Of a stretch of 64,000 bases of DNA, positions 37,642 to 60,869 are shown piece after piece. Position numbers and translations under genes: made by a program. The DNA lies in NCBI GenBank assembly GCA_027604505.1, contig JADIIX010000099.1:1-64000 (forward strand). Reading direction: 5' to 3'. Position 1 is the first letter of the stretch; each line of letters begins with the position of its first letter. The notes below the pieces were generated by a model that did not search any database, was not told the DNA's origin, and saw only the letters and a program-made list of their open reading frames with translations. The DNA is from Gonapodya sp. JEL0774. Taxonomy: Eukaryota.

Positions 37642-40618
37642 ATGAAAGACGAAGATAATACCCTCCGTGGGGCGTGCTGGGAGGTCTGCTGCAAATTTTG
37701 AACACTGTCTTCCGTGGTCAAAATCCACTCACCCGTACCTACGACCATCCAAGTGTGACTGCCCAGAATATGCCCACGTTGCTGCTGCTCTCCATTGTGG
37801 TGACTGTGGGCATCTCGTCACTCACCATGCGGTCGTAGACCGCCTCACACCCATTCCGCCAGTCATCATGTCTGACGGTGCTGGAGGTACTGTGTACGGC
37901 ACCCCTTTACCAATGTCCATGACCATGCAGCAGCATCAACATTTCATGATGCAGCAACAAATGATGATGGCGGGCGGAGCCACGCCGCATTTGGGATCTC
38001 TAATGCCGTCCTATGCGGCGACTGGCGTCCCCTTCCAATCTGCCAGACCTTTTGGATCGCCTGCCGGTATGAACGAGTCACTTCACCCTACTATGTACCA
38101 GATGGAGCCTATGGGCCACACCTCAAATCCCGTCTCTGGAGTTGAAGAATGGAGAACTGTGATGCAACGTTCTGATATGGTCAAGGGCACGAACAAGGAA
38201 ACCTCAGAAGTCAGCCAGGTGATTGCGGAACAGGACTCAACACCGCCTCCGCCGGGTGTGCAGTCAAACTCCGTGGCTGTACAGGAGCTGAGGCGCCGTG
38301 AGTTCGGCCCGTTAGACCTTCGTCACGTTTGAGCTCCCTACTTTGCGTACCGGTCGAAGCTCATCGCAATGTTATCCTTATCTCCTTGGTGGCAAATAGG
38401 AAAACACAATCCATCTGATGCCAGCCAGTCCAGCTCCACCTCGGCTGCTCTTACGCCTTGCGAGGCAACCATGGAACCGGTTCAAGCAAATTGCCCAACA
38501 ACCTCCCCAACGCTGCCCGCTCACTTTAGTGTCCTTTTTATCCTCCATATTAGCGTTTGGCTTGCCGCAGTATCATACCTCTTGTTCACAAGGGACCCAG
38601 TGACAAAATTCGGAAGTAAAACCGGACGCAAAGAGTGCCAAGGATCAGGAGCGGAGAAACTTATGGAAAGGTTTGGAGTATTCGGTGCGGTGAGTTTGCT
38701 TGATGTAAAGAAGATTTACTGAGCCGTACAAACACACGAGATAACGCTATTCCTCTTCGGTGCGCTCCTCCCGCGCTCCAACGGGACTATCGGCGCTTGC
38801 TAGACCGTAATGGTTCTTAGCACGCTCGTGGCAGGGTGGATATCCGTTCGTGGTATTTCTGCACACAGGAGGGCCTTGGCCAGAGTGGTGGCAGCAGTGA
38901 GTTTCAGTCACTGTATACCACTGGTCGGTACTGTGGAGCTTGCAGTTTACTAAGTCCTGCGTCTACACACACAAGTCACTGGTTCTATCAACAATTCCGT
39001 ATTTCCTTCCTGTGATTTCCACCCTCCCAATTACTCCACTGCACCTTCTTAAAGGCATATCCCCGATATATCAGTCTGTTCTCGCCGTTTCTCGCACCGT
39101 TTCTTCAGCACTCCTCCTTCTCTTTCTATCGGCTCTTCCCTCCACGGCGACTGGCCGTGATACTGTTCCTATGTTGTCTCTCTATCTCTCCTCCATTGCC
39201 GCCATTTTCTCCATCAGTGCTTCTGCCCCTTGGCGACATCTGTTGTTTGTATTTTCGATTGCGGGACATGCTTCTGTCGTCAAAGCCGTTGCGAGGTTTA
39301 TGGATGGACAATTCTGGGGAATGGCAACGTGGATACGAGTACCGGTGAAATTTGGTCTCGTGGTGAGCTGGTCAGGCTGGCATGTCGGTTTCTTTTGTAA
39401 GTCGAATCGGTTTGTCGACGGATTACACAACTAATCTCTCTCTTCCCGGCGTCAACACCCCATTGTGTTAGTGCATATCGTCGGCATTATATCTCACGAA
39501 CGATATGAAAACACCGTCGTGGTGGCGGATGTGGTGGCCAGAATTGTTTTGGTGTGTGCTTGACAAAAGGTTGTTCCTTGGTGGTTCACGCGGTCTGTTT
39601 ACGCAACAATCCTAATGACGACAGCCGCTATTAATACTCGTGACTTATACAAACCAACAAAGTGGAGCACTCGATGAACCAAGAGCACAAAATGAAATCA
39701 CTATGGAGGACAAAATAGGCACTGCGATGGATGGTCTGCTGCGAAGTGCGTCGATCCCTAAACAGTGAGCCATATAATCCGTGCTTAGAGTCCGTGGCAT
39801 TGTGGAAAGTGTATTGCGTTATCTACCCCGGGTGCCACAATCAGAGTGCTCGAAGCATTCGAAGCCGGCGACAATGCGCCCAAGTGGTCCATCAGGACTC
39901 ACGATACAGCTGCTGTGGTGATCGTTCGGATAGCAAATTACGCGGTTTTGGAAGCAAAACTCGAAGTGAGTGGCCCTAAATCTCACACGTGCTCACGCCC
40001 AACCACTGCATACCTCCTCACTCAATTCGCTCACAGTCAAAGGGAATTGAATCTTTTTTTGCCAAGTTTAAGGCTGTATATGCTAGTCTGGGCGCCGAGC
40101 GCGGCGTTATAAGCATAGATGTGAACCCCGGCACTTGGGCAGCGGTGGCTGGCTATTGTGTCGGCGAAGTCAAAGAAATGAGCCCGTCATACGCGGTAGA
40201 CTTTGCCGTCGAATTGATGAACAAAATGAAAGAAACGAAAGTGATTATGGGTGCGAAAGGTGAGATGGCGACTTCGATTGAACTTGTAATTGGGGTTACG
40301 ACTGGTGAGTCAAGGTCAAAAGAATCCCATTTCCACACCTTAAAATACAATGTGCATTGTTTAGGATCCATCACGGTGGGAGAGACAGAAGGACGCGTTT
40401 GCGCTGCAGGTCCTCCTCTCGACAATGCGTGTTTAGCAGTTCAGATGACCAAGCACTGCGGTATCTTCGTCGATGAGTCAACGTTCGAAGCCATCAAGGA
40501 TAACCCAAAATTCAGAATGAGTGGCCCGGAGATTATTGAGCGGAAAGGAGACCGAGCAATGACAACTTATCACGTCGATCTGCGATTGACAACAGAGGAA
40601 ATTGAAGTGCTTCCATAG
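37642..40618 (+). CDS. RGC paralog A: rhodopsin-cyclase-like protein with retinal Lys->Arg and a pseudo-cyclase domain
   Basis: Starts MKDEDNTLRGACWE|CDCPEY..CGDCGHLVTHH like B-D. Exons splice in frame at paralog-equivalent positions. Helix G reads ADVVARIVL; the cyclase-like C-terminus ends FRMSGPEIIERKGDRAMTTYHV. Confidence 0.8.
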
Positions 40619-40815
40619 GAGTGAAGAATAGCCTTAGTACATGGACATTGTGCTCTAGTAACTTGTTTACTGGCTCATTGTCTTAGAACATGGGAGCTTG
40701 AAGTAGCGTTGTATTGTGTTCGTGTGATGCACCGGTTCATGTAACACCTTTGTGGTTGACCGAGACACTAGTCGCCCATCACCTGCTCTGAGAGTTTACA
40801 CAGCATACAATTCCA

Positions 40816-42378
40816 TTACTCGGGAGACGTAACTTTCTTGGGCCTCTTTGAAACATCCTCAACCACTAGTTCTCCCCTTTCCCGACGAGCCTTGATCTGG
40901 TCAAGAATAATCTTTCCCCCACCTGTTTCAATCTTTTCAACGATCTGATCGGCCAGCTTCTTTGCAGACTTAACATCCCTTGTAAATGCCTCATCTGGGT
41001 ATCCTTCAACCGCCTCGGAAACGTCTGCGAGAACAGCTTCGCCCTCCGCCCTAACTTCCTCCACCCCATCAAGGGTCCACACGGCTGCAATAACTCGTAG
41101 AACCCTCCCACCATCAGCGCCGGCAATAATGTTGGTCCTCACTCCTAGGGGTACGCTGCACCCTCCTTCTAACCGCCTCATGATCTGACGCTCGCACTCA
41201 ACACGGACGCGAGTGGGACGATGTTCTAGAGAGCTTATAATCGAGACAGTGCGGGCATCGCGATTTGGGTCACGATCATTTGTTTCAGCCGCTAATCCGT
41301 CAAGTTCGACGGATGAATCACCAGAAGCAGCCAGGATACCCGATAGCGTGGTGCCACCGGCAGGATCACGGCACTCAACGGCCAGAGCACCTTGACCGAC
41401 AGCGTAAAGCGACTCTGTGTCCTCTAGAGTGTAGGAGATGACGCTTTGGAGGTCCAGTCGGAGGAGCCCGGAGCGGGCAAGGAGAAGAGCAGAGAAGGCA
41501 GGGAAGGCAGGGTCGGACGATGGTGTGTTAAGCTTAGAGAGACGGGTGAGAACGTTGCCGCGCTAGTAGACAGGCAGAAGGGTTTATTCAGGTGGAAGGA
41601 ATTGGGGATTAAATCTCAATTAGAGTGTGATTCGGTGATTCCCCAAAAAGAGAATCCTAATAACAGCGATTAAGCTACCGACTCGCTATCCGGTCGCAAG
41701 AGAGTATGGAGGAGTATGGAAGGGCTCGCGAGGATCTTCGAGTCCGATTGCAGCGTCCCACTCTCCGCTGTCAGAAGTTCTCCTTCGGCAGTGGTCCTTT
41801 CAACTCACCACATCCCTGAACACGAGATTCGGAAATTTGCGTTTCATTTGAGCGCATCTTCGGACACTGCTGGTGCCAATAACTGCGCCGTCCGGGAGGT
41901 CTTCGAGTCGTGTGATGTGAGGAGAGTCCCGCTTAATAGCGTCACTAAGCACTACACAGTCTCTGGGGTCTTCCCTCTCCAACACTGCAGCCAGTAACAT
42001 TCCCTTGGGTAACGTCGTAGGAACGTCTTTCAAGGAATGTACAACGAGATCTGCTGTGCCCGCATGAAGAGCCAGTTCAAGCTCCTTTGTGAACAGCGCT
42101 TTAGCGCCGATTTTTGAAAGAGCAACATCAAGTACTTTATCTCCAGTCGTTGCCATGGACCGGACATCGAAGGAATATTGGGGGAATCGGTTGAGGAGTT
42201 GGTTGATCACGAGATCCGTCTGCACAAGAGCCAACTTGGAGTTACGGGATCCAACATGGAATGCTGTATCGGAGTCTTTTAAAGGCATTGGTTGGTTTGT
42301 CCCATTGCCGTCGATTCCATTGATTCCAACGATTGCAGAAGAAGACGGCTCTCTGCTTCCGGTTACGGACGTTGCCAT
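40816..42378 (-). CDS. HEM3: Porphobilinogen deaminase (hydroxymethylbilane synthase)
   Basis: GSRNSKLALVQT, GDKVLDVALSKIG.K.LFTKELE, VHSLKDVP, REDPRD, GTSSVRR, AVGQGALAVECR, LEGGCSVPLG. Confidence 0.95.
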
Positions 42379-42568
42379 GGCGAATCGGTCGAAAATTGAC
42401 AAGCGTAAGGCGCCAGGCCGGTAAGTTTATGTATACTACAGCGGTCGCGGATCGAAAGCTGCGGGATAGGTTGTTTGAAAAGGCGATTCGCTTGGCTGTT
42501 CGTTTGGCGTTGTATCACCAACAACGGAGGCACACTCGAGATTTCATTCTTCATCTCCCATCAACTAA

Positions 42569-43905
42569 TTACAAAGAGGCAGATCTTTCATCTCGCTCAG
42601 CTTCCCATTCGACGCGAAGCTTCCGCGAGAACAATTCCCACACCAGTCCGAAAGAAGCGGCCGCCATGGCAGGGTCGTAACGACCCTTGGAAAGCTCGTC
42701 CCGAATGAAAGCATGTTGTACCGAATGCAGCTCCAAGAACGTGTTGGGAATCTGTTGCAAATAATTAGGAGGACGCAATGTCAGAACACTAGCACATCTG
42801 GAACACTACCTTGTGCTTGTGGAGTGCGTTTCGAATGGCCGTTCGTCCTTCGTGCGGGATGTGGTTATCCGAGTGCCCTGTTCATCTGAGCGGTTAGAAA
42901 AATGTTCCGGAGGCACCTCCAGCTGTATCACCCACCAAATACAAGCAGAAGCTCCGCAGTTTTGATATCAGCCATCCTTGCCAAACTGTCATCATTTTTT
43001 CCCTTCCCGAGAGTCCCAGAGTGTATGTCAGTGGGTTCAATCAGTGCTCCACAACGGACACGATGGTCAAAGCAGGCACGATACGCCAGGTGGCCACCAA
43101 TGCAAATGCCTGGTTCAACAGTAAGGTCAGACACGTGCCACAAACAAACAGGCGGTGAGACCTTCTCTGAAACGTGGACGAGCACAAAAGTGGAGCTTCC
43201 AACCAAACCTCGAAACATGGAGAGAAATCCGTCCCCCATTACCTCCAAGGGGGCTGTTTCCCATCAAAGTCAACTCACCGGATACACCAATTGCTCCAGT
43301 ACACTGGGGGTGTGCCGCGATGGCATCGATAACGGCTTTGGCATCACCATCATATGATGAAAGGGGCTGCCAGAGGGGAATGACGAGGTGAGCGAAAGTC
43401 CGTTCAAGGAAAACTGAAACAAAAGCAAACCTTTTCAATTTTGAGAGCGTTGCCTTTTTCGGTGCCGGCATCGTCGTATGTGAGAGGTGTGCCTGATAAA
43501 AGTGATGGTCAATGTCATGAAATCAAGGGGGAAAAGCGGGTGCTCACCTGCAGGAATGAACTCGTGGTATATTTCTGGTGCAGCAACCAGATAGCCCTGC
43601 CCGCACACCAGCCTGCAAAAGCGCTTGATGGGTTCGGTGACTTTTGAATGAGGGATGGTGAATGAACGGAGAGGTATGGATGGCATATGCCGCATAACAT
43701 GAGCGAGAAAAGACAGCTGAATTGCTACCTTTGCATGTTGCAATTCGAATGAACTCTACAAACCTGCGTAAATTTCGCTGTAAACTACAACACCAGCGAA
43801 TCTCCCCTTGCCAGCTTTCCATCCAGGCATAGACGGAGTAAACCAATGAATTCGCATGGAGCCTGATGGCGTGGAGATATCCGTGCTAGATTCGAGGATG
43901 ATCAT
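42569..43905 (-). CDS. Dienelactone hydrolase family protein
   Basis: GVVVYSEIY, GYLVAAPEIYHEF, nucleophile motif GICIGGHLAYR, HAFIRDELSKGRYDP. Confidence 0.9.
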
Positions 43906-44229
43906 TTGGGTTGGTTTGAAAGGGAATAAAATATGAGGGCCGAAAACTTGCACCTAACCGCGTCACACGGCAAGGATGTCCCCCATCTCCTGAGAATACC
44001 CTGAGAATGAAAGAAACTGGGGCACCTTCTCGCGGGAATCTCACGGGTAATCTCGTCATCTGTTTAAAAATTTAAGTCCTCTCCGCCGACATTCATCCGT
44101 AACAACGAGAGAAGTGAGTTGTAATTGCTCATTTATTTGTACAGTATCACTTTCGTTTTGGAAACTTAATGTACAGCTGTCTGGACCTTGGACACCCTGC
44201 CCTCTTCCCACTAACGTATCCAGTTGCAT

Positions 44230-47114
44230 TTACATCCTACCCTCGACCCAGTAGGTCCTCATGACGCCCTTGCCCTTGATGTCCATGACTTCAGGACCAC
44301 TGAAGATAAACTTGTTCAAATCCTTAACAGCAAGGTACGTACTCTCGGTGATGTGGATGCGTCCGGCTTTGGAGGTGGACTCCATTCGCGAGGCTGTGTT
44401 GACTGTGTCGCCGACGATACAATAGTGAGGATTGAGGTCTCCCAGAAGACCAGCAATGACAGGACCTGTAAACAATGAATTTTTGTTTACGAGTTTGTAC
44501 CATTAGGAATTGCAGACAATTGCGTTCCCACCGGTGTTAAGTCCAACCCTGCTCATGATTCTGTCACCCGTCTCCGTCTTAAAGTCCTTGAGCATGTCAA
44601 GAACATCGATTGCGAAATCAACGGCCATCTCCGCATTGCGTGGGTTCTCTTTCGGGCAGCCAGCTACTCCGAGGAACGCGTCTCCAATAGTTTCGACCTT
44701 GTAGATTCCGTACTTCTTGAGAATAACATCATATTGCTTCCAGAGAGAGTCTAGCATTTGCATAGTGCCTTTAGCCTATGTTTAAGAGGAAATTAGTTGT
44801 AGCATTGACAGGTAGTTGTAACAAGTGTAGCACAAACAAGTCACACTCACATCCATTTTCTGTTGAAGTTGAGCGTAGTTGACGATGTCAGAGAAGAATA
44901 CGGTAACTTCCTCGAACTCGCGGGCATCCGTCCCCTCGCCGGCTTTGAGCTGTTTCACAACGCTTCAAGGAGGCACGGAGAACACGAAGGGGTGCGTACA
45001 GGGATCATGAAGATCAATGTTAAACACCGGCTTGAGACACATGACAGCCACTCACTCTTCTGGAATAAGCCGGGTGAGCATTGCGTCGGTCTCGGCGATG
45101 GCGGCGTCGAGCTTGTCCACCATTGCGTTGAGGCTCTCGTTCGCGGCTTCAACGACTTCCATCTTTTCCCTTTGCACGAGCTCCGTAGCGGCATTGAGCA
45201 AAACTAAAGTCTGTTATGAATTGCGTGAACAGGATTGCGACGGCAACATGACAGATATTAGGGACGGGAATGACGGATAACTGTGGAGAATCTACCGAAC
45301 TTACTGTGAGACCTTTCGCAACCATGTCAGAGCTGACATTTCCAAGCTCGTATGTATCAAAGGAGCACAAGTCCAGGAGATAGACTGGGCGAAAACAGGT
45401 GTCAGCGGATAGTGTGAAGAAGAGAAGGACAGAGTAGTGAGAAAATGGACGATGAAACAGAACAAGTCTCAACTACTCACTGAAGTACCACATTGTGAAT
45501 GACCACCAAGAATAGTTGGTCGCGAACCTTAGAAGGTACAGACTTGATTTGTCCACCTTACATTCGGTCTTCCCATTGATAGCGTCAGTATACACCTCCC
45601 ACAGCCTGGCTGTGCAAGGCATAAACGCGGCTTGCGAAATTAACATCCAAATGTCAGCGTACGGCCGCGCCACCCAAACTGCAATGCCTCCCGTGATGTT
45701 CATGATGTAAGACAACACCAAGATTGGTGTGGCCTTGTGTTTGGTCTTGGTTACGCTGAATGCAATACTCGCAAGAATAGGGCAGCAACAAGACCACTCG
45801 AGGAACCGAATCGCGTGCATGGCGGTGCCACGATACACGTCAGGAGCAGCGTAGTCCCAGCGATTGACCATGAAGACGTATGCGCCGCAACCCATAGATT
45901 GGCACTAAGTAATACGAAATTTGTAGGAAAGGACCAGGGAAGGAGAGAATGGCATGTTTGAGAAGGTAAGAAGCAGAAAAAAGAATTGCAATTAACGAGG
46001 GCAAGAGGTCGACGTACTGCCAGGACTGCCCAGGCCAAGAACCTCTTGTTCGGATCCTTCATGGTCATAAGATTAAGAAGAGTAAAGAATATGCACAGAC
46101 TGTATCCCCACTAAAGTTCAAAGGTTTATGAAAGAGAAGATATTAGTCACATCAGAAGACAATCCACAGAGAACCCCGCGCGCCTTCCACCAGCCACCAC
46201 CCGCTTTCAAAGCACTACTTACTATGCAATACGTATCATAAAGGTCTGAGTTGGGGCCTTTCTTGGGGTACGGATTCGTGGGACCATTTTTGTAAGTGTT
46301 GTAACCCATCAAGAGAGCGCCTGTCCACCACACGGTGAGGTTTCCGATCACTATGGCTGGGAATCTTTCTGGGAATGTTGGCCTGTTGTCCAGCACTTTG
46401 GCTTCCAATTTGGTCACAGGCAACTCTGGTCGAAGGAATGCCACGTTCAGCGGCGAAGATTTCAATAGCCCCCCATAGAAAGCCAAAATATTTCTTCGCG
46501 TTACCTTGGAATGTATTCACCGGGTTCACCTGCGGTGGCAGTGACGGCTTTAAAGCGGGTTTCGGCATCGCTGGCTTTGGCGTGACTGGAGCCTGAGCAG
46601 GAGCGGGCGCAAGAACCGAGGCCGGCATTGACTTTGGAGGGGGACTAGTGACACCGTGGCCATCGTCGTGCGAGTCGTGAGCTGGTGCTGACTTGCTGTG
46701 GTCTTCGTGACTGTGACCGTCGTGTGCAGTATTACCTCCGTGAGAAGGTGCACCGACAATATGAGGGTGCGGCACTGGCTGAGATGTACTTGGCTCTGTA
46801 GCAACTTGATGTTGTTGTGGCTGGAATTCCATAGGTGCCGGACCGCGAGATACAGCACTCTTCATTGCAGGGACCCCAGTGAGGCCAGCCGGATACTGTG
46901 CGGGGGCCCCCCAGGACGAGGTAGAGCCAGAATTGTCATGTTGTGGCAAAGGTGGCAGGGGATGGACGGTGAGTGGCGTGAGTCTGTCGATGACAGCATG
47001 ATGGGTGACGAGATGCCCGCAGTCGCCACAATTGATGGCGGTCTCGATGGTTGCGTACTCCGGGCAATCGCACTCCCAGCAAGCACCGCGAAGAACTTTG
47101 TCGTGATCCTTCAT
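44230..47114 (-). CDS. RGC paralog B: rhodopsin-guanylyl cyclase (CyclOp/BeGC1-type)
   Basis: N-terminal Cys/His motif; extra TM0; helix C RFLEWSCCCP; helix G SDMVAKG; coiled-coil linker; GC motifs FFSDIVNY, YKVETIGDA, PHYCIVGDTVNTASRMES, KGKGVMRTYWV. Confidence 0.93.
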
Positions 47115-47680: not shown

Positions 47681-50600
47681 TCAGATTCTATCATCGACAA
47701 AATAAGCTAAGGTTGTCACTCCTTTGATTTCTATCGGTTCTGGTCCGCTAAATCTGAACTTCCCCAGATCTTTCACCATGCTGTATGTAGTTTCGTTGAT
47801 GTGGATACGCCCGGGTTTAGAAGTGGCCTCCATACGTGAGGCGACAGTTGCAGTGTCTCCGACAACAGTGTAGTGTGGGTTCGTCTCTCCAAGGATGCCC
47901 GCAGTCACAGGGCCTGTGAAGATTGATTGCGAGAACAAACGTGTACTCAGTGATGGCCATGTGTCGTGTCAAAACAGCAAATGAGTCCTAACCTGTGTTC
48001 AGACCGACCCTAATATTGATAGGCTCACCGGCCTCTGTTCTGAAGTCTTTTATCATTGCCATGATGTCGAGGGAAAATTGGACGGCGCGTTCGGCATGGT
48101 CCGGAGTTTCGGTTGGACATCCAGCTACACCAAAAAAGGCGTCCCCAATGGTTTCAATCTTGTAAATGCCCCACTTCCTCGCAATCGCATCATACTGCTG
48201 CCAGAGGCGTTCAAGCATCTTGATCATATCCTTCGGCTGTCACGTTTCGGATTACAGTTGTTGCATGATACGGTGGCACGGGTAGATGACCAAAATGGAC
48301 AATATTAGGGTGGAAGAACAAATTAATGGAAAGAAGGGCTCACTTCGGTCCGACTGGAGAGAACAGTAAAGCTAGCAATGTCTGAGAAGAACACAGTGAC
48401 AGCCTCGAATTCGCGGGCACCTGTGTCTTGTCCACTCTTGATTTGCTGTATCACGCTATGTGTCGAAGCCGGAGAGAATTCGATCAGAAACAACGCCAGT
48501 TGTATCGTTACTTCGCTCCCAACCAGTGCTCGCACTGAAAATCAGTCAATCCAATCACGCAATCCCCATGATAAACAGAAATTGACCCTTGTGGTGCGTG
48601 AAGTAAAGTCAACTTACTCTTCTGGGATCAAACGAGCGAGAATGGCGTCCGTCTCTGCAACTTCTGCATCCAACTCCTCCACGAGCGCGTTTAGAGTGTT
48701 GTTAACTTGCTCCACCTTTTCCACAGCGAAAGTCTGAACTTGTTCGATGGACGCGTTGGTGAGAATCAAGGTCTTTGCGACGGAGTAGTATCGAAACAAA
48801 GACTTATCGACAACTGACGAGCAAAACATCAATGAGGTTTCTATAGTTACCAGTATTACTTTGGCAAAAATATCAGCGCCAATCATGCCAGCTTCAAACT
48901 GATCATGAGTCAGAATGCCACCGCAATAGACTGTGGGTAAGAACATCATTTGTTGATACATGAAGAGTTGTATTTGGACGAGATTGTGCATTGCTTACTC
49001 AAATAAGTTGTGGTGAATGTCCACCAAGCGATCATAGTGGTAACGCGAACAATCTTCAGACTCCTTGTTGGAAACCGACATTCGGTTTTCCCATCAATGG
49101 CATCAGTGTACACTATCCATAGGTTGATGATGATGTACATGAACAGTCCCTGCGATACGACAAGGGAGATGTCGGCCCAAGGTCTGGGGAAAATGGCTCC
49201 AAAGAAACCCGTCAAATCCATGAGAAAGTTCGCGAGGCGAACGTACGACACGTTGCGGCGTGTCTTGGTGATAACAAATATGATTTGAATGAGGAGAGGA
49301 CAGCAACACATCCATTCGATGAAGCGAATGGGGTGGTTGAGAGTTCCACGGAATGGATCGACGATTGCAGGGTCGAGCCGGAATATCATGATAATGTACG
49401 ACCCTATCGCCATGCCTAGACACTGTCGTGCAAACCAGGACGTTCACCTCACGTCATCAAAACGGTGTCCAATCGTTATGCTCGAACTTACGAGGAACAG
49501 CGCCAGTGATAGAAATCTCTTTTCGGGAAGCTTAGCTGTCCAATAGCTTATCAGGGCATAAACCATTCCAAAAACACACGCCCACTAAAACGGAACTGTG
49601 AGTCGAGCGCGAGGATTCGGCTAAATCAGCTCCATTTAAGCTTACAATACAAATCCAGTCGTAGGTATCGCAAGTCGGGCCTTTCAGCATGTACTGTCCG
49701 GGGAAGCCGGTCTTCCATCCCATCCAGACGCAAAATGCCGCAGAGATGCACCAATTTGTAACGTAGAAGGCCAAGATAGACGGAAACTGTTCTGGATGCG
49801 GTGGCTTCATTTGGTTGACACTTGCGGATATTGATGTATTCGTTTCGAACACTGCTTTGTTCGGCTTTTGGTGTTTGCTAATTTCATCCGTGTCCTCAAA
49901 GTTTACTTTTGGAGGCTCCATGGTTTTACCTACATAGTCATTTCCATCCGTTTATAAAAAGAAATCATGAGAAGAATCATGCAGAGACGTGGTGCTGAAT
50001 GAAGAACTGACGTTGTCTCATCTCAGACCCCTTGTTACTTTCCATGATTGGCACCAATGCAACGTCTGGTAGGCGGGGGATCGCAGTTTTTGTGATCGTT
50101 GGTGGAGATGGTGCGGTTTCTGGAACGATAGGGATTTGGATACTTGGGACAGAAGTCTGCTGGACTTCGAGCTGAGGTTGTGCTACTGTGATATTGGTTG
50201 CGATGAGCGGCTGAGGTATTGATGCTTTGTTTGGGGCTGGCGCTGGTGGCTGGGGTTCCACAACGATAGATTTATGGAAGGCATTCATTTGCGGTTTGGA
50301 CACTCCAGAACGTATTGGGATTCTCGAAGCCGGCTCTTGAAGCGCAGACGGTCCTCTGCGAAATCGCAGATAATTGAGGGTTGCGGGAATAGAAGGATCG
50401 GGACCGCATCTGCTTATACTCACGAAGGGAATGACACAGGGGCAGGTTGGCCAGCGACCGCGGTTGAAGTTCTGCTATGACGCTCGGCCAAAGCCAGTGG
50501 CGAAAGACGGCTGATGACAGCATGGTGTGTGAGCAAGTGGCCGCAATCCCCACAGTCCAGAAAATTGGTGACATGCGCAAACTCTGGGCAGTCACACTTG

Positions 50601-50713
50601 TCAGAAGAATATTAAATAGAAGCTCATTGGAATCTAGCAGCTCAGTTGGAATGCCAACTTTGAATGAATACCTTCCAGCAGGCTCCTCGCAGATTGCTAT
50701 CGAAATCCTTCAT
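47681..50713 (-). CDS. RGC paralog C: rhodopsin-guanylyl cyclase
   Basis: MKDFDSNLRGACWK|CDCPEF; helix C RFIEWMCCCP; helix G ADIFAKV; FFSDIASFT, YKIETIGDA, PHYTVVGDTATVASRMEA. Confidence 0.93.
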
Positions 50714-51493: not shown

Positions 51494-53118
51494 TCAATCA
51501 TTCTTTTTCTCAGGCTGAGAAAACGGATACCACAAGCTGATGGTCACTAGTCCAACTTCAAATTTGTGGAAGTTAGCATTCATTGAGTCAGAACGGCGAT
51601 TTCAATGTCTGACACTTACTAAGTAGCCACAGTGTCGTGTTGTCCAAGAAGCCACTTTCAGTCCAAACAGTTGGCTCAACTTTCTCAGCAACGTGATCGG
51701 CATTATCCGACAACCACCGGAGTCTGAAACCATCCGTGAATCGAGATCCTGAGGACTTATCAGATGTGCTATGTTTGCTTTGGGTTTCGACCGCTTTGGA
51801 AGATCTATCAGCTCCGCTTAGCTTCAGTCCACGAGGTAAGTTCGCGTTCGCTTGATCCGGGTGTGGGCGGTTCCAACCCTTGCCGATTGCCGACGACCAC
51901 ATCTTGTTCCAGAAACTCTCCCTTTTGGTCTCATCCTCTGTCACATTTTGGATGGTCTCAGAATGTTTAACAGTCGACGGCTCTTGTTTCTTGCTCATGT
52001 CGTCCGATTTAGATTTGAATTTAACAAACGCGTCTTGGAGTTTAGCGAGCCAATCGGATCCCGCGGACTGTTCTGAGACTTTGAAGATCTTTGAGCGTTC
52101 ATTTGGATGAGAGGATGGCACTTCGGTCATCAATGGTTGCTGTGTCGAGGGGACGGACCCTTGAGCATGCTGATAGCGTTGCAACGGTGGAATCTCTTGC
52201 CGAAGCCTATCTGATCTCAGTATAGGCCATGAAGCAGGCTGCGGTGCTTCCATTGACTCCATCGCTGCGTCACGCATGTACTGGTCGTTCACAATGCGAG
52301 ATCCACTCGCGTGATTGCGCATGTAAACGGGTTCCGTCTCAACGTGAGCACTCTGTGGAGACTGCTGTTTAAGATGCCGAAGCTCAGTAGAGAGAAATGA
52401 AATGTCGGCCGCGAGGCTCCTTATATCGGAGTTCCGCTCTTTGCGATTCGTCTCCACAGATCGCTCGAAATTCAAAGCTTCTTGAACGAAGCCTTCGTAG
52501 GCGGAGCCGACGGCTTTCTTCATTTCTATCGTGAGTTCATCAAACAGTGACTTGGTCGCGATGTTCCTGTCATGGATAAACTTTTCGAATGTGTCCAGTT
52601 TGTGTTCGAAAGCCAGCTGCCGCTCAGTTGATGCTGCAGCGAAGGAGCTCAGACCTTTCTCCAAAGCTTCATAGTTGCTTGTCAGCTTGCTCACACCCTT
52701 GAGATCGGTGAATTGTTGATGGATGGAATCAAATTGTGCACGAAGTTCTTTCGATTCACGTCTCAATGCGGATATCTCAGACACCACGTCGTTGCTAGCC
52801 CGCAAATCACCACTTCCGGGGCTTGATCCGAAGCCTTTCAGCAAGTTTAGCAACAGTAAGACAGCTGCAACGCCGATGACGGCGAGCTTCGACAGTCCTT
52901 GGAGATGGATTCATGGATTAGAGTCAGAAGGTTCCCATGATGATGATGCATTCACAAATACCTCGGGATGAGCTCTCTGAGGCTTGAAATACTCCATACT
53001 GAGCACGTTTGGTTGCGTTCGTCTTGGCGAAATCGTCTCTTGAAGATGAGAGGTGTGACATCTCAGATAAGGAAGACAGCGATCCCCCAATACTTCGAGG
53101 AACGGGTGGAGCTTCCAT
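51494..53118 (-). CDS. Paralog E1: uncharacterised TM / coiled-coil / C-terminal TM protein
   Basis: MEAPPVPRSIGGSLSSLSEM; intron; TM LAVIGVAAVLLLLNLL; heptads; W..GFLDNTTLWLL|IGLVTISLWYPFSQPEKKND*. Confidence 0.8.
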
Positions 53119-53595
53119 GTTCTCGCGTCCTCAAAATATAGACGTGATATGTAGATATACAGAAGATTTGTGATTGATCCAGGCAAACCGCGTGATGTCG
53201 AAGGTAACTTGCGATAAGGGAAGGCAGCCATCCCACTCACACTCCTCCACCAACGTGATGAAAGCCAGAGGAATACGTGACTCCACAGCTTGGTATTAAA
53301 TAACCAAAAGAAAGATTCGGGAACATTCATAGTTAGAAAGAGAGCAGACATCGGTTCTCTCAAGTCTTCGTGTTTACGATGTCTGAATGATTGAGCAAAT
53401 GGCTATGAGTAGCTTCAGAAAGTAATAATATGTAATACTAGCTGTCTCCCCTCGGGTGGTTGTTTGCATTGTTTATGTTGCAAGAATCGAGTACTGCCTG
53501 CTTGCAGATGGATGTGGGGCGCGGCCGGCAAATCTTCGCAGTTCTTCTTCAAATAATCTACTTGTCTCTGCTTCAATTCGCTGCTGGAAGTAACG

Positions 53596-55249
53596 ATGGA
53601 CGCTCCGACTATTCCTCGAAGTCTGGGAGGATCGGTTGCCTCCCTCTCTGAAATGTCCTCTTCCCTTCGAGACTACAGACAGTCGCTATTCCGCAAGTCA
53701 GACTCCATGTCAACTCCGATTAGCGATCCATCAAGAAAGGCCAAGGCCCCTAGCCTTCAGTCTGAAGAGCCTTCACCTCTACAGAAGGTCCCTCAAAGCA
53801 ATTTAGATTGGTCTGCGTTCGTACAGGGAATCGTCACCTGGGCCTCAACCGACCCCCAAGGAGCGGTCAAGGTGACCGGCTTCGTTGTCGTCGGGTTCTT
53901 TGCGCTTCTGGGGTTCTTGCAAATGTTCGGACCGAGCTCCGCATTGCCCGACAATGGAGTGGGCTCTGGTGTGGCATTATTGCAGAGGGAAGCCCATGAC
54001 CTCCGGCAACAGGTGGATTCTGTCTATCAGTTATCGGCAGGTTTCAAGGGAATCAGCAAGCTGGCTAGTAATTTTGAAGCATTGGAGAAGGGAGTGGATT
54101 CGTTTGCGGCCGCAACCACAGAGCGACAGAAGTCGATCGAGCAGAAACTCTCCATGTACGAAAAGCTCAGCAGTGACCGCCACAGCATGTCTCAAGCCCG
54201 CTATGATGAACTAAAGAGGGAAGTCAAAAACTTAGCTAGCTCGAACCACGAAACTTTTGTCCAGGAGGTGCTCAGTCTCGAACGATCCGTCGATCAAAAA
54301 TTTCAGGAGCACAGTTCCGCAATAAAGAATATCGCTGCTGACATTTCACTTCTCTCCACCGAACTCCGGAAACGTAAAGATCACCCTTTTCAAAATGCGC
54401 AGTTCGAATCGGAGCCCCCTGAAGTGCGGCACCCATCTCGGGCCTACACTCATCAGGCGCACGACATATTTTTAGGTGATGCAGACGCGGAGCCCGAGGA
54501 GTTTAGACAACAGAATCCAATGTCGCAGAAGCGCAACACTAAAGGGGACACGTTCTCCTCTGAATCAAGAAGTACGCTGGCAATGAATCTAGACTCATCG
54601 GCATGGAATGAAGGTGCCAGTGATTCAGCTCAATCAACACATCACGATCCATGGTCGACATTGGAGAGCACGTTTCCCAAACTGAAACCAACGACTATAC
54701 AAGTATCCCCGGCAACAGATTCCCAGTTTGCGGTCCTTCCAGATCCCCCCGCGAATGCCGATGAACCATATGGGCCAAGCCTATTTAACGTTATCAAGAA
54801 AGGCTTGATCTCATTCTCGAAGCGATTTGATCGTCCTTACATCGATCAAACAATGGCACACGTCGCTGATCGATTAAAACTCAATAAAGTGGAAGCACCT
54901 TCCAAGGTTGACGATTCGCATCAGGCTTCGCACTCTAAGTCTCAGAAGAAGACGCAAACGCCTCCGCTATCAGAGGAACCGTCTGGAACTCGCGTGGTTG
55001 AGGGCATTAAAATACGGGTACTGTCCGAGGAGCGTGAAACCCTTAAAAAGAACGATGAGCCAACTATTTGGTACAAGAATGGGTGGGACAACATGAGCCT
55101 GTGGCTAGTCAGTGAGTGACCACTGAGATTACTGCACCGACTGATGTGAACTGATGTGAATGATAATGTGTCCATCTCTGTTCTAAACAGTTGGGCTGGT
55201 GACCGTCACACTGTGGTATCCGTTCTTGGGTCTCGAGAAGAAGGATTAA
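53596..55249 (+). CDS. Paralog E2: uncharacterised TM / coiled-coil / C-terminal TM protein
   Basis: 507-aa ORF MDAPTIPRSLGGSVASLSEM; TM VTGFVVVGFFALLGFL; heptads; WYKNGWDNMSLWLV|IGLVTVTLWYPFLGLEKKD*. Confidence 0.85.
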
Positions 55250-55930
55250 GCAGGTGATTGTGGGCAATGGTCGCACACAAAGATACGTAGAATGAACTCC
55301 GGAACTGCTGTGGAGATATGAGAGTGTAAATCCCCCTTCTACTTCCAACAATAAATCACAACCAATATCATGTCGCAGCCTCTAGCAAATTCTCGTCAGT
55401 CGGGAAATACGCGCTAAAATAGTTACGTGGGTCATACTTTATCCCAAACACGCACAGCTTCGGCTACGGCTGAACGCAGCCTTTGACAGGGTTGCCCAGG
55501 CTGCCTGCCACACCGACTAGTGTGGTCCCTGCAGGACGAATTTTAAGGCAGTTCAAATATTTCCGGTCTTCCTTCCAAGATTTGTCATCTATAAAGCAAT
55601 ATCACGGCGCTGCACGCGTTAATCAAAGCAGAACATTATCAGGTGGGCCCTCCTGCGTACATGTGGCGGTGAATGGCCGGCGATGGATAACGGTCATCTC
55701 ACGCCGAGAACGCCATCCTGAGCCGGCAACGCGTCGGGTCCCGTTCTTCACTATGACATCGTGTTTAATCACGTCCTCGTGTCTTTGATGCAAATCGTTT
55801 GGGGGTTTCCATCGAACTTTCTGGAGAGGACGATGATGGAATGAAGCGATGGTGATGAAATCGCGTAGTAATCAACTGATGATCATCCCTGCTTCATCAC
55901 CTGTCAGAACCCTTTCACGGAGCTGCGAAA

Positions 55931-58616
55931 ATGAGAGACTTGGACAACACTCTGCGAGGTGCCTGTTGGGAGGTTGGTTTGAACGCGTCTACATCAGAAT
56001 CACTGCCCCGTACTGATTCTCCCTATGCAAGTGCGACTGTCCAGAATTCGCTCATGTCACGAAAGCTTTGAATTGTGGAGATTGTGGGCATCTCCTCACT
56101 CACCATGCCGTAATCGATCGCCTCTCTCCGGTTTCTATGTTAGAGCTTCACCAGAGGGCGTCATCCGTCAGATCCAGGCGGCAGTCAGCCAAAAGCATCC
56201 CCCAGTCTGCATACGGATTCATGACTGCCATCCCTATTCAGCCTGCCCAAACCGGACCACATTCACATGACAGCCATATCGTGTCGGCGGTTTCTCCAAA
56301 CCCTTCCCACTCATTGAGTCCATCTAAATCTCCACTGCCAGGGCCAGCAAAGCCAAGCGTGAATAAAAATGCTGCAGAGCACCAACCTGTCGTGTGTCAG
56401 CCAGTCGTCACAATTCAGGAAACAAGGAACACAGAAAATGCCCGATTCCCAGAGCGAAAAATGGAATACAATCTCCCATCTCATAATAATTCTTCGCTAG
56501 GCAATGAAGAGATCGTGACCCGGCACTTACCCACTGTCAATTCAAAGAAACCTCCGCAGCCGGAGCAGTTTCCAGGCATTTTAGCGTTCTATGTTACCAC
56601 CTGGTGTATTTCTGCTGGCGCTTGCGTTTGGATGGCCTGGAAATTGAACTTCCCGGGCAAAACCATTCCGAAAGGTCCTGATTGTGACTTTTATGACTCG
56701 CACTGCATTGTACGTTCCGTCTCGGAATCTGGTTTGGACCGTGAAGGTTTTCTCATGAGCATCATTTATACAGTGGGCTTTTGTTTTCGGCATGGTTTAC
56801 GCGATGATTTCTTACTCATCAACACGGCTCCCTGAGAAGAGATTCTTGGCTTTGGCGCTTTTCCTTGTGAGTACATGTTCTCAGGCGACTACCATCTATC
56901 TACAAAGTTTTTACTTAACACTGATGCCTCTTGACATGCCAACAGTGCTTGGCCATGGAAACTTGCGCCTATGTCCTAATGATTTACAGATTGGACCCCG
57001 CATTCGTCGATCCGTTTCATGGAAACATCAGTCACCCATCGCGCTTTATTGCGTGGATGTGCACATGTCCTCTATTGATTCAAACTATTTTCGTCGTGAC
57101 AAAGACGCGGCGGGATGTTTCTTACGTCCGCCTTGCAAACTTCTTCGTGGACTTGGCTGGCTTCTGCTGTTCTTTGTTCCCGAGACCTTGGGCCGAACTC
57201 TTCGTTCTCCTTGCAGTGTCGAATTTCTTTTATGTAATAAAGAACCTTTGGCTCGCTTATTCGGAAGCCATTGATGGAAAAACCGGATGTCGGTACCCAA
57301 GAGGAAGTTTAAAGATACTGCGCATCACTACAATTGTGTCTTGGACAGCATTTCCAGTGACTTACCTTGGTGAGTGTAGCTCTGATCCGTCTTTTCTTGT
57401 GAATGGTGCTCTTGATTTGGTTTTCTGTCTCTTCGGCAGCCTACGCTTTCGGGTACATCACGCACAGCCAATTCGAGGCAGGCATCACAGTCGCGGATAT
57501 ATTTGCGAAGTTAGTTTTGGTGAGAACAGAGAGTGTACTCGACCACTCTTCAATATGGCACGGTAACAATTTGTTCCCTCCTTTAGACGTTGATTCTCAC
57601 CAACGCGTCTATTGAACAAGTGCATACAGTTCAAGTAGAGACAGTGGAAAACGTCAATACTGCTCTTCATGAGTTAGTGGAGGAGTTGGATGCGGAAATC
57701 GCGGAAACTGACGCGATTCTCGCCCGTTTGATCCCAGATGAGTGAGTAACTTTAATGACGAGGGCACATGCACATGTCCTGGACGAAAATGTGCTGAGCG
57801 AGTCATAGTCCTGATGTACGGGTTTACTCCTCCCTCCCTCTCTCTTGTCAGAGTAATCCAGCAACTTAAAAACGGTGAGGCGACAGACGCTCGCGAATTC
57901 CCGTCTGTCACCGTCTTTTTCTCGGATATTGCCAGCTTTACTGTTCTTTCTGGCCGGACGGAAGTGAGTGCCTGGATTCAACCTCAGCGATATTTGCTAC
58001 AATGTTGAACCCGAACCGTTTTCTTCTCACATTCGACGGATGGAAACTCCTGAACAGCCAAAAGAAATGATTAAGATGCTCGAACGCTTGTGGCAACACT
58101 ACGATGCGATCGCGAGGAAGTGGGGAATTTACAAGATTGAAACTATCGGTGACGCCTTTTTTGGCGTGGCGGGGTGTCCAACTGAAACTCCAGACCATGC
58201 TGAGCGTGCAGTACAGTTCTCAATTGACATCATGGCAATGATTAAAGACTTCAGGACCGAGGCAGGCGAGCCCATCAATATCAGGATTGGTTTGAATACA
58301 GGTGAGCGTTCTGGTAGAATTGCATCCGATTTCGTTCCAGAGAAGTTACCACGGTTGGTAACGTCATTTCCTCCACTTTGCAGGACCTGTAACTGCCGGT
58401 ATTCTCGGCGAGACAAACCCACACTACACCGTAGTCGGAGACACAGCCACAGTCGCGTCTCGAATGGAGGCATCGTCTAAGCCCGGTCGAATTCATATTA
58501 ACGAGACCACTTACAATATGGTGAAGGATCTTGGCAAGTTCAAATTGAGCGGGCCGGATCCCGTGGAGATCAAAGGTGTGACCTCCATGACATACTGGGT
58601 GGACGGGAGACTGTGA
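55931..58616 (+). CDS. RGC paralog D: rhodopsin-guanylyl cyclase with Ala at the helix-C counterion site
   Basis: MRDLDNTLRGACWE|CDCPEF; helix B CLAMETCAY; helix C RFIAWMCTCP; helix G ADIFAKL; FFSDIASFT, YKIETIGDA, PHYTVVGDTATVASRMEA; ends YWVDGRL*. Confidence 0.93.
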
Positions 58617-59127
58617 TTGAGGTCAACAAGAAGTCTGATGCTAGCCAGAAGTCGATATACCCTCCAGCGATGCGACGAAAATTTCAAAAGCAATACCGTA
58701 ATCTTCTTTTATTGTATTTTAGTCTGCTTTTGCTTTTACCCAGGAGCTTGCTCCATGGATTTACAAAGCGGTTGTAATTTGAGTATCATCAATCCATTCA
58801 TCCCTAAAGTCAATATCATGAAGATGTTGAATCCCCTCGTTTCACCTCATCTCGCATTTCTTTTGTAATGATGGTCGGATGGGATTTCAACCTTTAAAGC
58901 GATGTGATCACTGGATCTCGGTTCCGAGTTCCCGTTGTAAACAATTTGAAAAACGGACTGCCTATTTGTTATACATACTACAATACTGAGAATGTACTGG
59001 AAGGCTTCATTCACATCTGAAGTATCTAGATTCATTTCGGCGAGCAACAATATTCAAATATATCCTTTCGTCCTTTCGTCCTGCTCCCGCTTTCGAGTGC
59101 ATGGCCGATCTTGAGAGGTTTCGTGAA

Positions 59128-60869
59128 TCAATGGTCATCGCCTGTGGATGGGAGCCCATATGGGAACCAGAGGGACACAGTCACCAAGCCGACTGTTCAT
59201 GTTCGTAGGTGTGCCCAAATCAACGGACTGAGGTTGAAGAGCGCACTCGCGAGTGAACACAACACTTACTGAGGTACCACAGAGTGAGATTGTCCCATCC
59301 TTTGTTGACCCACTCCATAGTTTCCAGGTACATTTGGACATTCTCTGCCGTTTCTTCGACATCCGACGGTGCTGATAACACCACGAGATTCATATCTTTC
59401 TTCGAGAGATCGTTGGCGGATTTTGAATCAGTATATTCGTTCGGCCTTTTCGCTGGGCGGGCGATAATGGAAGACTTGAAGAGACTGGTGGTCTGTTCCC
59501 AAACCTTCTTCAACCCTCTGGCGTCAGATTTCACCTGGTTTGGTGCGTCGCGCGATCCGAAGCCGTTTTTGACGAACGCCTTGGGAGGAGGCACGGAATT
59601 TTCTTTTCCATTCGAGTCGGATGATGCAGACTGTGCTCTAAATGAGCCAGTAACTTTGCTATAAAAGGATGCAAAGATATTCCCGTCGAATGAGCTTTGT
59701 GCTTGAGTACGCTCTGTTGGTTCTGCTGGTGGTGTTGCCCCAGGTCTGTTCTTTTCGATTGGACGATTTAACCTGTTCGTATCCGCATAGCGATCGGCCT
59801 GGTCAGTGTCCCTTAAACGTTGCGACCCCTCAGGTTCCTTGTTTCTCTCAGATCTTTCGGGTTCCCTGTAAAGCTCGGATCTCTCTGTTTCCCTGAAGCG
59901 CTCGGATCTTTCAGGTTCCCTGTATCGCTTGGGCTGCTCAGGTTCCCTGTGGCGCTCAGACCTCTCGGTTTCTGTGTAGCGCTCGGACCGCTCGGACATC
60001 CTAGGCTGCTTCTCGGATCGATCCGTGCCCTTAGCGACCGATCCAACTTTGAGCCTTCGAACATCTTCGGACAGTGCAGCGAGTTCCATCGAAATGGTTT
60101 GAAGCGCCTGGCCTTGTTCGGTCGTGCGCCTGCCGTATTTGTGTTCGAGGCGGGCCATTTCTCTCTGAAGAGCTTCGGCACGAGTACTGATTGCCCCACG
60201 AAGGTCGTCAACTTGGGTTTGATAGTTCATCTGGCGGACAATGGCGGACTGTTCGTACGAGTCCACGCGGGAATCGACCGCCCGCCGCATTTCGTCCAAG
60301 GCATTGCGCGTTTTGGTGTCCAAGCTCTGTTCAAGGGCCTTGAGGCGATCCAAGAGGGAGCTGGCACCACCAACGGAGCGAAGGTCCGTGGTGAGAGAAT
60401 GCAGAGAGTCGACTTGGAAGCGGAGTTGCGACGCCTCCCGCTGAAGTAGCGAGAGCTGGCTGTTCACATCGAACTGATTTCCGAACGACGGGGCGTTGGT
60501 TTTGTTGACGGTACCGTAAAATACGCCGCCGAAGAGCGAAAAGAAAATCCACACTACTGTGAGGATGAGTGCGGCGGCTTTGGCTTTCCCACGGCCGTCG
60601 AGCGAAGACCACATCTGCATAGGAGTTGTCTGAGATAACATGTGCAATGTGGAACCGTCAGCTTTCAAGCTTGGTTGAGACTCCGTTTGTGCCATTGGTG
60701 TTGTGGTGCCGTGCACTTTAAATGTTGCGGAGGACTGCATCGGCGAATTGGAGCCGTAGACTCTCGAATTCCTTTCATAAGACGCAGGAAGTCCATTGAC
60801 GCTTCCGAGCGAGCCTAGTGACCCAGGCGGACTTGATTGGCGAAATGATGCGAGACTGGGTATCTCCAT
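59128..60869 (-). CDS. Paralog E3: uncharacterised TM / coiled-coil / C-terminal TM protein with 9-aa repeats
   Basis: TM AAALILTVVWIFFSLFGGVFY; LLQREASQLRFQVDS (E2 has LLQREAHDLRQQVDS); WVNKGWDNLTLWYL|IGLVTVSLWFPYG. Confidence 0.85.
59780..59997 (-). repeat. Coding 27-bp (9-aa) tandem repeat inside E3
   Basis: ERSERYTET ERSERHREP EQPKRYREP ERSERFRET ERSELYREP ERSERNKEP EGSQRLRDT DQADRYADT. Confidence 0.85.

What the first reader, a model, noticed from the sequence alone, without database searches (positions are those of the whole stretch)
37642..60869. A ~23-kb photoreceptor cluster: four diverged rhodopsin-guanylyl cyclases plus three copies of an unknown membrane protein
Seen: four RGC paralogs (A+, B-, C-, D+) with shared exon architecture, and three paralogs of an unrecognised two-TM coiled-coil protein. 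Known: RGCs (BeGC1/CyclOp) are the zoospore photoreceptors and act as homodimers, or as NeoR-containing heterodimers in Chytridiales. Inference: the paralogs differ at retinal-pocket and catalytic residues in a complementary way. This suggests a combinatorial, multi-colour light-sensing system with a shared subunit (B), alternative partners (C, D), a blind and catalytically dead modulator (A) and a possible scaffold (E). None of them shows the NeoR carboxylate signature.
Basis: partly seen in the sequence, partly recalled or inferred. Interest (0 to 1): 0.9.

Follow-up and report, generated by a model that had tools for sequence, protein, structure and literature searches.

The report
Fungal mixed-pair light sensors, evolved independently
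An aquatic fungus (Gonapodya) carries four neighbouring copies of a light-sensing rhodopsin-cyclase gene, in which one copy has worn down one side of the enzyme's active site, two the opposite side and one both, so they likely work as mixed pairs, a design described for only one other fungal order and likely evolved separately here.

Summary
Observation confirmed. The window matches Gonapodya sp. JEL0774 (Monoblepharidomycota). Four intact rhodopsin-guanylyl cyclase (RGC) genes share seven intron positions, and three two-TM coiled-coil paralogs (E) are real. B and C are already in the 2023 RGC survey, filed as homodimers, and RGC clusters are known.

New here: B has the cyclase signature of the NeoR partners RGC(a) (NxxxR intact, P-loop Thr lost). 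C and D have the NeoR-type half (TxxxR, Cys to Thr, shortened KG loop) on ordinary rhodopsins. Among 109 aligned RGCs only A loses both halves. B, C and D form one Gonapodya clade, so a B+C/D heterodimer (inferred, about 0.7) would be an independent origin without NeoR. A Synchytrium pair shows the same split.

A is retinal-less and dead but has lost its linker, so pairing is unshown. No evidence links E to the receptors. No expression data, and no synteny test was possible. The scan has no look-alike note on other DNA.

The parts
37642..40618 (+). RGC-A: pseudo-receptor, 757 aa, 10 exons. Keeps the N-terminal Cys/His motif, a membrane domain and a recognisable cyclase domain. Retinal Lys is Arg494, metal Asp is Arg572, second metal Asp, R545, N573 and R577 equivalents lost; linker decayed
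40816..42426 (-). Porphobilinogen deaminase (HemC) gene interrupting the cluster; limits are stop-to-stop ORF limits, start not modelled
   Evidence: Pfam PF01379 E 8e-49 and PF03900 E 2e-12
42850..43914 (-). Further multi-exon gene between HemC and B, limits approximate; resemblance to dienelactone hydrolases is recalled, not confirmed
   Evidence: reading frames; no Pfam or PDB support
44230..47114 (-). RGC-B, 718 aa, 9 exons: ordinary retinal pocket (E338, D463, K467); cyclase keeps E587, C656, N663, R667, K704 and both metal Asp; P-loop Thr replaced by Ala. Base-donor (RGC(a)-like) half
   Evidence: same state in the G. prolifera ortholog KXS22530.1 (P0002)
47681..50713 (-). RGC-C, 727 aa, 11 exons: ordinary retinal pocket (E348, D473, K477); cyclase keeps D557, D601, R645 and P-loop Thr562; base Cys is Thr666, catalytic Asn is Thr673, KG loop one residue short. 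Metal-donor (NeoR-like) half
51494..53118 (-). E1, 498 aa, 3 exons: TM, long coiled-coil helix, disordered stretch, C-terminal TM. NCBI fuses it to C in KAJ3338020.1
53596..55249 (+). E2, 524 aa, 2 exons; head-to-head with E1, 35% identical to it; one predicted helix at residues 151-262
55931..58616 (+). RGC-D, 686 aa, 9 exons: paralog of C from an inverted duplication; same cyclase half (T625, T632, short loop); first counterion is Ala307, retinal Lys436 kept
59128..60869 (-). E3, 554 aa, 2 exons; more distant paralog (27-30% to E1/E2 in the coiled-coil part, 43-45% at the C-terminus)

Best explanation
The locus encodes RGC paralogs with reciprocally worn cyclase halves, which likely work as B+C (and B+D) heterodimers with one active site and likely arose within the Gonapodya lineage, independently of the NeoR/RGC(a) pair of Chytridiales. 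Shown by sequence: C and D keep the metal- and phosphate-binding side (two Asp, P-loop Thr, Arg) and have changed the guanine Cys, the transition-state Asn and the KG loop; B keeps the guanine and transition-state side and has changed the P-loop. Inferred: the working site is C/D metal side plus B base side, and the mirror site binds GTP without turnover and may damp activity, as shown for NeoR/RGC1. Inferred: light on B, probably at 550 nm or longer because B lacks the TM6 proline, triggers cGMP in zoospores; C may add input; D is likely a UV-absorbing or colourless partner. A is a maintained, retinal-less, dead paralog whose selected part is the N-terminal Cys/His motif on a membrane anchor; it likely acts as an accessory or damping factor, with partner unknown. 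E genes are likely passengers of the segmental duplications.
For: Residue roles from the CaGC-GTP structure and NeoR/RGC1 mutants. Survey: of 129 aligned rows, 109 cover both sites; 56 keep both, 28 lose only the P-loop Thr, 24 break only NxxxR, 1 (gene A) loses both. Twenty of the 28 are named Chytridiales or Cladochytrium RGC(a)-like proteins, and most of the 24 are NeoRs. The short loop is in 17 of 21 NxxxR-broken rows and 1 of 80 intact rows (rows with loop length 8 or 9, A left out). NeoR has Thr at the same Asn position (T455, PMC12264004). B's state recurs in G. prolifera (P0002), and that species also has a C ortholog (GopRGC1). Trees on 42 hand-picked rows without A: B, its ortholog, C and D form one clade at 98/87 in the cyclase with the trait columns removed and 100/100 in rhodopsin plus linker. 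C/D with NeoR is rejected on the joined alignment (p-AU 8.6e-6), and B with RGC(a) on the cyclase alone (p-AU 0.038). Synonymous sites are near saturation while replacements are low in C versus D and in A's N-terminus.
Against: No activity, pairing or expression data exist for any of these proteins. C and D keep the Arg of NxxxR, which NeoR mostly loses, so C or D homodimers may keep some turnover. B keeps every canonical catalytic side chain, and the P-loop contacts are by backbone (PMC7384201), so B could work alone. On the cyclase alone, C/D with NeoR is not rejected (p-AU 0.053), and an 18-row mixture-model cyclase tree that included A did not resolve the Gonapodya clade. The survey rows are related, so the Fisher p of 0.0004 overstates independence. 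The cyclase of G. prolifera GopRGC1 was not visible, so conservation of TxxxR outside this genome is untested. G. prolifera is reported to lack the BeCNG1 channel (PMC9616733), so the output is unknown.
Confidence: 0.68

Rival explanations
1. B is a self-sufficient homodimeric RGC, as the 2023 survey assumes for Monoblepharidomycota, and C and D are weak or silent homodimers or optional modulators.
For: B keeps all eight canonical catalytic residues; C and D keep the catalytic Arg; tested RGC(b) proteins from Rhizophydiales, one of them in a cluster, work as homodimers (PMC10622942).
Against: BeRGC, the CaRGC-like construct and the Rhizophydiales rows keep both P-loop Thr and NxxxR. RgRGC1/2 also keep all catalytic residues yet need NeoR (PMC8815786). 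C and D keep their metal side under strong constraint (cyclase pN 0.06, pS 0.74), which a silent homodimer would not need.
Confidence: 0.2
2. The heterodimer is ancient: the two cyclase halves descend from one old duplication shared with NeoR/RGC(a), and gene conversion or domain shuffling made the Gonapodya rhodopsins look like sisters.
For: C/D cyclases are closer to one NeoR (61%) than to RGC(a) (52-56%) by raw identity; they share N to T and the loop deletion; cyclase-only AU p 0.053; a non-fungal-labelled RGC (P0014) has the same half.
Against: With trait columns removed the cyclase tree still joins B with C/D at 98/87; B with RGC(a) is rejected (p 0.038); the linker and N-terminal motif are of one Gonapodya type in B, C and D; intron positions are shared by all four genes.
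Confidence: 0.1
3. One reading: a combinatorial multi-colour complex in which C and D give different action spectra, A titrates it by pairing and E scaffolds it.
For: C and D differ at three pocket positions (ci1 E/A, T89 site C/T, TM6 T/P); A and all E copies are intact; E1 and E2 sit directly upstream of C and D, and E3:(E1,E2) mirrors B:(C,D) in depth.
Against: In tested heterodimers the metal-donor subunit does not trigger the enzyme (PMC10622942); Ala or Gln at ci1 gave no or UV absorption in CcNeoR4 and CcNeoR3; A's linker scores below shuffles; co-duplication of E follows from segmental duplication alone, which also left unrelated genes inside the span.
Confidence: 0.1

Closest known systems
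NeoR/RGC(a) heterodimers of Chytridiales (Rhizoclosmatium globosum NeoR with RGC1 or RGC2; PMC7655827, PMC10622942, PMC12264004)
   Same: Clustered RGC genes; one subunit with broken NxxxR and intact metal side, the other with intact base side; same Thr at the Asn position, same short KG loop, same P-loop Thr loss in the partner.
   Different: No NeoR counterion triad: the metal-donor subunits carry ordinary-type rhodopsins. Ratio reversed: one base donor, two metal donors. C/D keep the Arg but lose the guanine Cys. Separate clade. B and C are in tandem, not divergent.
Homodimeric RGC(b): BeGC1/CyclOp, CaRGC, GpRGC1/2, GhRGC2
   Same: Domain order: N-terminal Cys/His motif, membrane rhodopsin domain, coiled-coil linker, class III guanylyl cyclase; about 58% cyclase identity. 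The published tree files Monoblepharidomycota here.
   Different: Homodimers keep both half-sites; none of the four Gonapodya genes does.
CcNeoR4 (Chytriomyces confervae)
   Same: An RGC-cluster member without retinal absorption, without cyclase-transducer element and catalytic residues, non-functional in all pairs tested: precedent for A, and for Ala at ci1 in D.
   Different: A is not NeoR-derived, replaces the retinal Lys itself, and is far more diverged (about 29% cyclase, 14-17% membrane-domain identity to its paralogs) while keeping the N-terminal motif at 71-79%.
Soluble guanylyl cyclase alpha/beta and transmembrane adenylyl cyclase C1/C2
   Same: Class III cyclase with one active and one degenerate site built from two different halves.
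   Different: Different sensors; in B the metal Asp residues are retained, as in RGC1.

Membership tests
Rhodopsin-guanylyl cyclase (RGC/CyclOp) | [quoted passage not shown] | tested here: met
   B, C, D 577-619 bits on an RGC profile; Pfam Guanylate_cyc for B, Bac_rhodopsin for C and D exons, not for B
Rhodopsin-guanylyl cyclase (RGC/CyclOp) | Retinal-binding Lys in TM7 | tested here: met
   Lys in B, C, D (K467, K477, K436); 122 of 124 rows have Lys. Not met in A (Arg494): A is a homolog, not a photoreceptor
Rhodopsin-guanylyl cyclase (RGC/CyclOp) | Light-activated cGMP synthesis | not testable with these tools
   needs expression and assay
Homodimeric RGC(b) | Both half-sites complete in one chain (metal Asp pair, P-loop Thr, Glu/Cys, NxxxR, full KG loop) | tested here: not met
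   C/D: Cys to Thr, Asn to Thr, short loop; B: P-loop N-Y-A; A: both lost. The P-loop criterion is my own, from the survey
Homodimeric RGC(b) | Active when expressed alone | not testable with these tools
   no Gonapodya assay in the parts of PMC10622942 read; the word Gonapodya is absent from its main text
NeoR | Counterion set ci1 Glu, ci2 Asp/Ser, ci3 Glu | tested here: not met
   ci2 is C, C, T and ci3 is Asp in B, C, D
NeoR | Cyclase lacks NxxxR and donates the metal Asp pair | tested here: met
   C and D: TxxxR, D557/D601 and D516/D560; they work like NeoR in this respect only
NeoR | Belongs to the NeoR clade | tested here: not met
   (p-AU 8.6e-6); cyclase alone borderline, p 0.053
RGC(a) | Belongs to the RGC(a) clade | tested here: not met
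   B groups with C/D; B with RGC(a) p-AU 0.038
RGC(a) | Inactive alone, active with a metal-donor partner | not testable with these tools
   predicted for B from the shared signature
Any described family, for protein E | Profile or fold match | tested here: inconclusive
   no Pfam match at cut-off for 3 of 3; no usable Atlas hit for E2; model is one long helix, mean pLDDT 48; E was not searched against the large protein collections

The most novel reading that the evidence does not exclude
Heterodimeric rhodopsin cyclases evolved repeatedly in zoosporic fungi, at least in Chytridiales, Gonapodya and Synchytrium, each time by the same reciprocal decay of the two cyclase half-sites. Gonapodya shows the state without NeoR: enzyme asymmetry comes first, and the metal-donor's chromophore is then free to drift (C ordinary, D counterion-less). 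A two-site sequence signature then predicts which RGCs need a partner, and A is a maintained non-catalytic regulator of the system.
Probability: 0.5. Interest if true: 0.75.

Novelty: new variant of a known kind. Interest (0 to 1): 0.62.

Why it matters
The current view is that heterodimeric RGCs arose once, within Chytridiales, tied to NeoR, and that the cyclase feature that forces pairing is unidentified (PMC10622942, PMC12264004). An independent pair with ordinary rhodopsins would separate enzyme asymmetry from the near-infrared chromophore, offer a route by which NeoR could have evolved, and name candidate determinants of obligate pairing (P-loop Thr, KG-loop length). It would also test which subunit's rhodopsin can drive the single active site. 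The assay is routine, and a two-gene AND-gate cGMP source is of use in optogenetics. It also revises the suggestion that the pathway is decayed in Gonapodya (PMC9616733).

Tried and rejected
No whole genome is held for this window, so paralogs elsewhere in the genome and a CNG channel were not checked. RNA runs: none was listed; this is no evidence on expression. Metagenome scan with the cyclase exon: 6 loci from 378 pattern matches, one an RGC with both half-sites intact and 63% identity, none Gonapodya-like, so synteny was not testable. Protein search with B's rhodopsin region returned only B. The profile search listed 120 of 144 hits and held no C, D or A ortholog from G. prolifera; A's exons were badly aligned in that query, so this is weak. 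Motif search in the 2023 supplement failed because cells are cut at about 400 residues. Trees could not place A (end branch 5.5-10); its kinship to B-D rests on introns and the N-terminal motif. Hydropathy gave 8 segments for A but only 2, 6 and 5 for B, C, D at the same threshold, so it is a crude test. A second Atlas query (E3) did not complete. No fold search was run for E, as one helix gives no usable fold. No complex prediction was run: RGC cyclase dimers resemble solved structures and would not discriminate. Rejected: C and D as alleles or assembly copies (65% rhodopsin identity, saturated synonymous sites); A as a decaying pseudogene (757 intact codons, 9 canonical introns, N-terminal pN 0.12-0.18 against pS 0.80-0.92); NCBI's E1-C fusion as a real protein (E1 has its own terminal exon and stop, shared with E2 and E3, and C its own start motif).
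Full report
1. Identity and gene structure. An exon of gene B found a 100% identical NCBI protein from Gonapodya sp. JEL0774 and a partial ortholog from G. prolifera. Models from exon coordinates give four intact genes: A 757 aa, B 718 aa (equal to KAJ3338019.1), C 727 aa, D 686 aa, with 35 of 35 introns GT-AG. Seven introns share column and phase in all four. All four begin with the same Cys/His motif, a Gonapodya form of a motif seen in 34 of 129 aligned rows, including Blastocladiella. Gene order is A(+), HemC(-), one more gene(-), B(-), C(-), E1(-), E2(+), D(+), E3(-). C-E1 and E2-D are the arms of an inverted duplication, with matching stretches at 72-83% in RGC exons, at the E starts and at the E last exons. 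The models of A, C, D and E rest on splice signals and homology, not on transcripts.

2. What is in print. PMC10622942 (main text parts 1-4 of 6 read; supplementary table part 3 and term searches; figures not seen) lists two entries for this strain, B and a fused E1+C model, and two G. prolifera proteins, GopRGC1 and GopRGC2, which by eye match C and B over the 400 residues shown. It files Monoblepharidomycota and Synchytriales RGCs as homodimeric RGC(b), restricts heterodimers to Chytridiales and C. replicatum, and describes RGC gene clusters in several chytrids. The table cells are cut, so the cyclase of GopRGC1 was not visible; the supplement's alignment figures may bear on this. PMC12264004 (passages and Discussion) shows that NeoR gives the metal Asp residues and lacks NxxxR (T455, K459), that RGC1 gives the base residues, and that only one site turns over. 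PMC9616733 (passages) found only a truncated RGC and no BeCNG1 in G. prolifera. Searches for rhodopsin + guanylyl cyclase + Gonapodya (4 papers), Gonapodya + phototaxis (2), rhodopsin guanylyl cyclase + Monoblepharidomycota (1) and rhodopsin + guanylyl cyclase + Synchytrium + heterodimer (3) gave no listing that proposes a Gonapodya or Synchytrium heterodimer. I read passages of only some of these, and subscription papers are not covered.

3. Cyclase half-sites. Numbering follows the CaRGC cyclase aligned; roles are from PMC7384201 and PMC8575461 (passages). One chain gives D457, D501, R545 and the N460-F461-T462 loop; the other gives E497, C566, N573, R577, K612. B keeps all eight side chains but reads N-Y-A in the loop; its G. 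prolifera ortholog reads N-Y-G. C and D keep the metal side and S-F-T, but have Thr for C566, Thr for N573 and a loop after K612 one residue short. I aligned the four models with 125 fetched proteins (106 new rows, which listed 120 of 144 hits, and 19). Of 129 rows 109 cover both sites: 56 keep both, 28 lose only the Thr, 24 break only NxxxR, and only A loses both. By the source names, 20 of the 28 are Chytridiales or Cladochytrium RGC(a)-like proteins, 5 are environmental, 2 are B and its ortholog, 1 is Synchytrium. Fifteen of the 24 have the NeoR-type Glu at ci3. The short loop goes with broken NxxxR (17 of 21 against 1 of 80). Cys566 is kept in 115 of 120 rows. The rows are related, so the counts describe a pattern, not independent events. 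Against the reading: C/D keep R577, and the loop contacts are by backbone.

4. Origin. On 42 rows picked by hand to span the taxa, A left out, B, its ortholog, C and D form one clade in the cyclase with trait columns removed (98/87) and in rhodopsin plus linker (100/100), apart from NeoR and RGC(a). Holding C/D with NeoR is rejected on the joined alignment (41 rows, p-AU 8.6e-6) but only borderline on the cyclase alone (0.053); B with RGC(a) gives 0.038. These trees used LG+G4. An 18-row mixture-model cyclase tree with A included was unresolved. The two Synchytrium microbalum RGCs are close kin in the rhodopsin tree (100/100 with one environmental row) and split the same way: one N-I-A-S-K with Thr kept, the other Thr lost with NxxxR intact.

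5. Retinal pockets. B and C have Glu at ci1, Cys at the T89 site, Asp at ci3 and the Lys. D has Ala at ci1, alone among 111 rows, of which 102 have Glu. None has the NeoR set. B and C have Thr where most RGCs have the TM6 Pro; PMC10622942 links loss of a proline near the ionone ring to maxima of 550 nm or more, and my matching of that proline to this column is an inference. Natural ci1 changes gave about 410 nm (CcNeoR3, Gln, still a working partner) or no absorption (CcNeoR4, Ala). A preprint passage cites 390 nm for BeRGC E254D (10.1101/2025.06.26.661701). D is thus more likely UV-absorbing or colourless than a second visible colour.

6. Gene A. It matches the RGC profile end to end (101 bits; best of 200 shuffles 5.3). 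By region: N-terminus 45 bits (best of 500 shuffles 8.7), membrane part 20 (11.8, residues 376-501 only), cyclase 50 (6.3), linker -2.5 (8.4), that is no match. It has Arg at the retinal Lys and at the first metal Asp, and lacks the second Asp, R545, N573 and R577, while keeping Asp, Cys and Lys at the base side (alignment unsure in TM3). Its first 48 codons show pN 0.12-0.18 against pS 0.80-0.92 versus the paralogs, so it is maintained by selection. Any dimer of A with B, C or D would lack a complete site. Whether it pairs is open, given the linker. CcNeoR4 is the published precedent.

7. E proteins. Three intact paralogs, each with a hydrophobic segment before a long helical region and a second at the C-terminus, and no cysteines. 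The model of E2 has one confident helix (151-262) and is otherwise disordered. No Pfam family reaches its cut-off and the Atlas gave no usable hit for E2. E was not searched in the large protein collections, so 'unknown' is provisional. Nothing ties E to the receptors beyond position. A spacer role in the rumposome, where R. globosum keeps its RGCs (PMC12264004), is speculation; that Gonapodya zoospores have this organelle is recalled.

8. Verdict. The cluster is real. Its known aspects are RGC clustering, heterodimer logic and a dead paralog. Its new aspect is a predicted second, NeoR-free origin of the asymmetric RGC heterodimer in a lineage filed as homodimeric, with a third candidate in Synchytrium. 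This is inferred from sequence and trees and is directly testable. The scan's index held no look-alike window and one loosely related note on bacterial cyclase halves. Interest 0.62; new variant of a known kind.

Noticed in passing
protein P0014 (EukProt label Clim_evm8s57): A full rhodopsin-cyclase fusion with a NeoR-type cyclase half (TxxxK, short loop). 'Clim' is recalled as Corallochytrium limacisporum, a non-fungal holozoan; if right, RGCs are not confined to fungi. No paper held rhodopsin + guanylyl cyclase + limacisporum. Contamination or transfer not tested.
   Followed up: partly
proteins P0221 and P0239 (Synchytrium microbalum XP_031024454.1, XP_031023840.1): Two RGCs with ordinary rhodopsins and reciprocal cyclase halves, on different contigs; candidate third origin of a heterodimer.
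   Followed up: partly
proteins P0009, P0235, P0164, P0210 (environmental): Mixed types: P0009 and P0235 have Glu at ci3 on a base-donor cyclase half; P0164 and P0210 have ordinary rhodopsins on metal-donor halves. P0164 and P0235 fall in one Rhizophydiales-like clade.
   Followed up: no
window 47681-53118: NCBI model KAJ3338020.1 (1201 aa) fuses E1 to RGC-C, probably an annotation error; I found no record for D or A in the searches run.
   Followed up: partly
window 47681-58616: Inverted duplication of a two-gene unit (C-E1 and E2-D) around a 477-base spacer, with a conserved head-to-head start.
   Followed up: yes
window 59830-59964: 27-base repeats in E3 encode a Glu/Arg-rich repeat.
   Followed up: no
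window 22706-23719: A Det1 (De-etiolated 1) family gene (Pfam E 7.5e-13), 14 kb from the cluster; probably unrelated.
   Followed up: no
window 7101-35097: Ordinary genes by Pfam: TLDc, F-box, MFS, fungal transcription factor, TPR protein, FAD-dependent oxidoreductase.
   Followed up: no
protein P0030 (Gorgonomyces haynaldii): An RGC-type protein with Glu and Asn at the two metal Asp sites and TxxxK: another apparently dead cyclase, matching GhRGC1 of the published cluster by eye.
   Followed up: no
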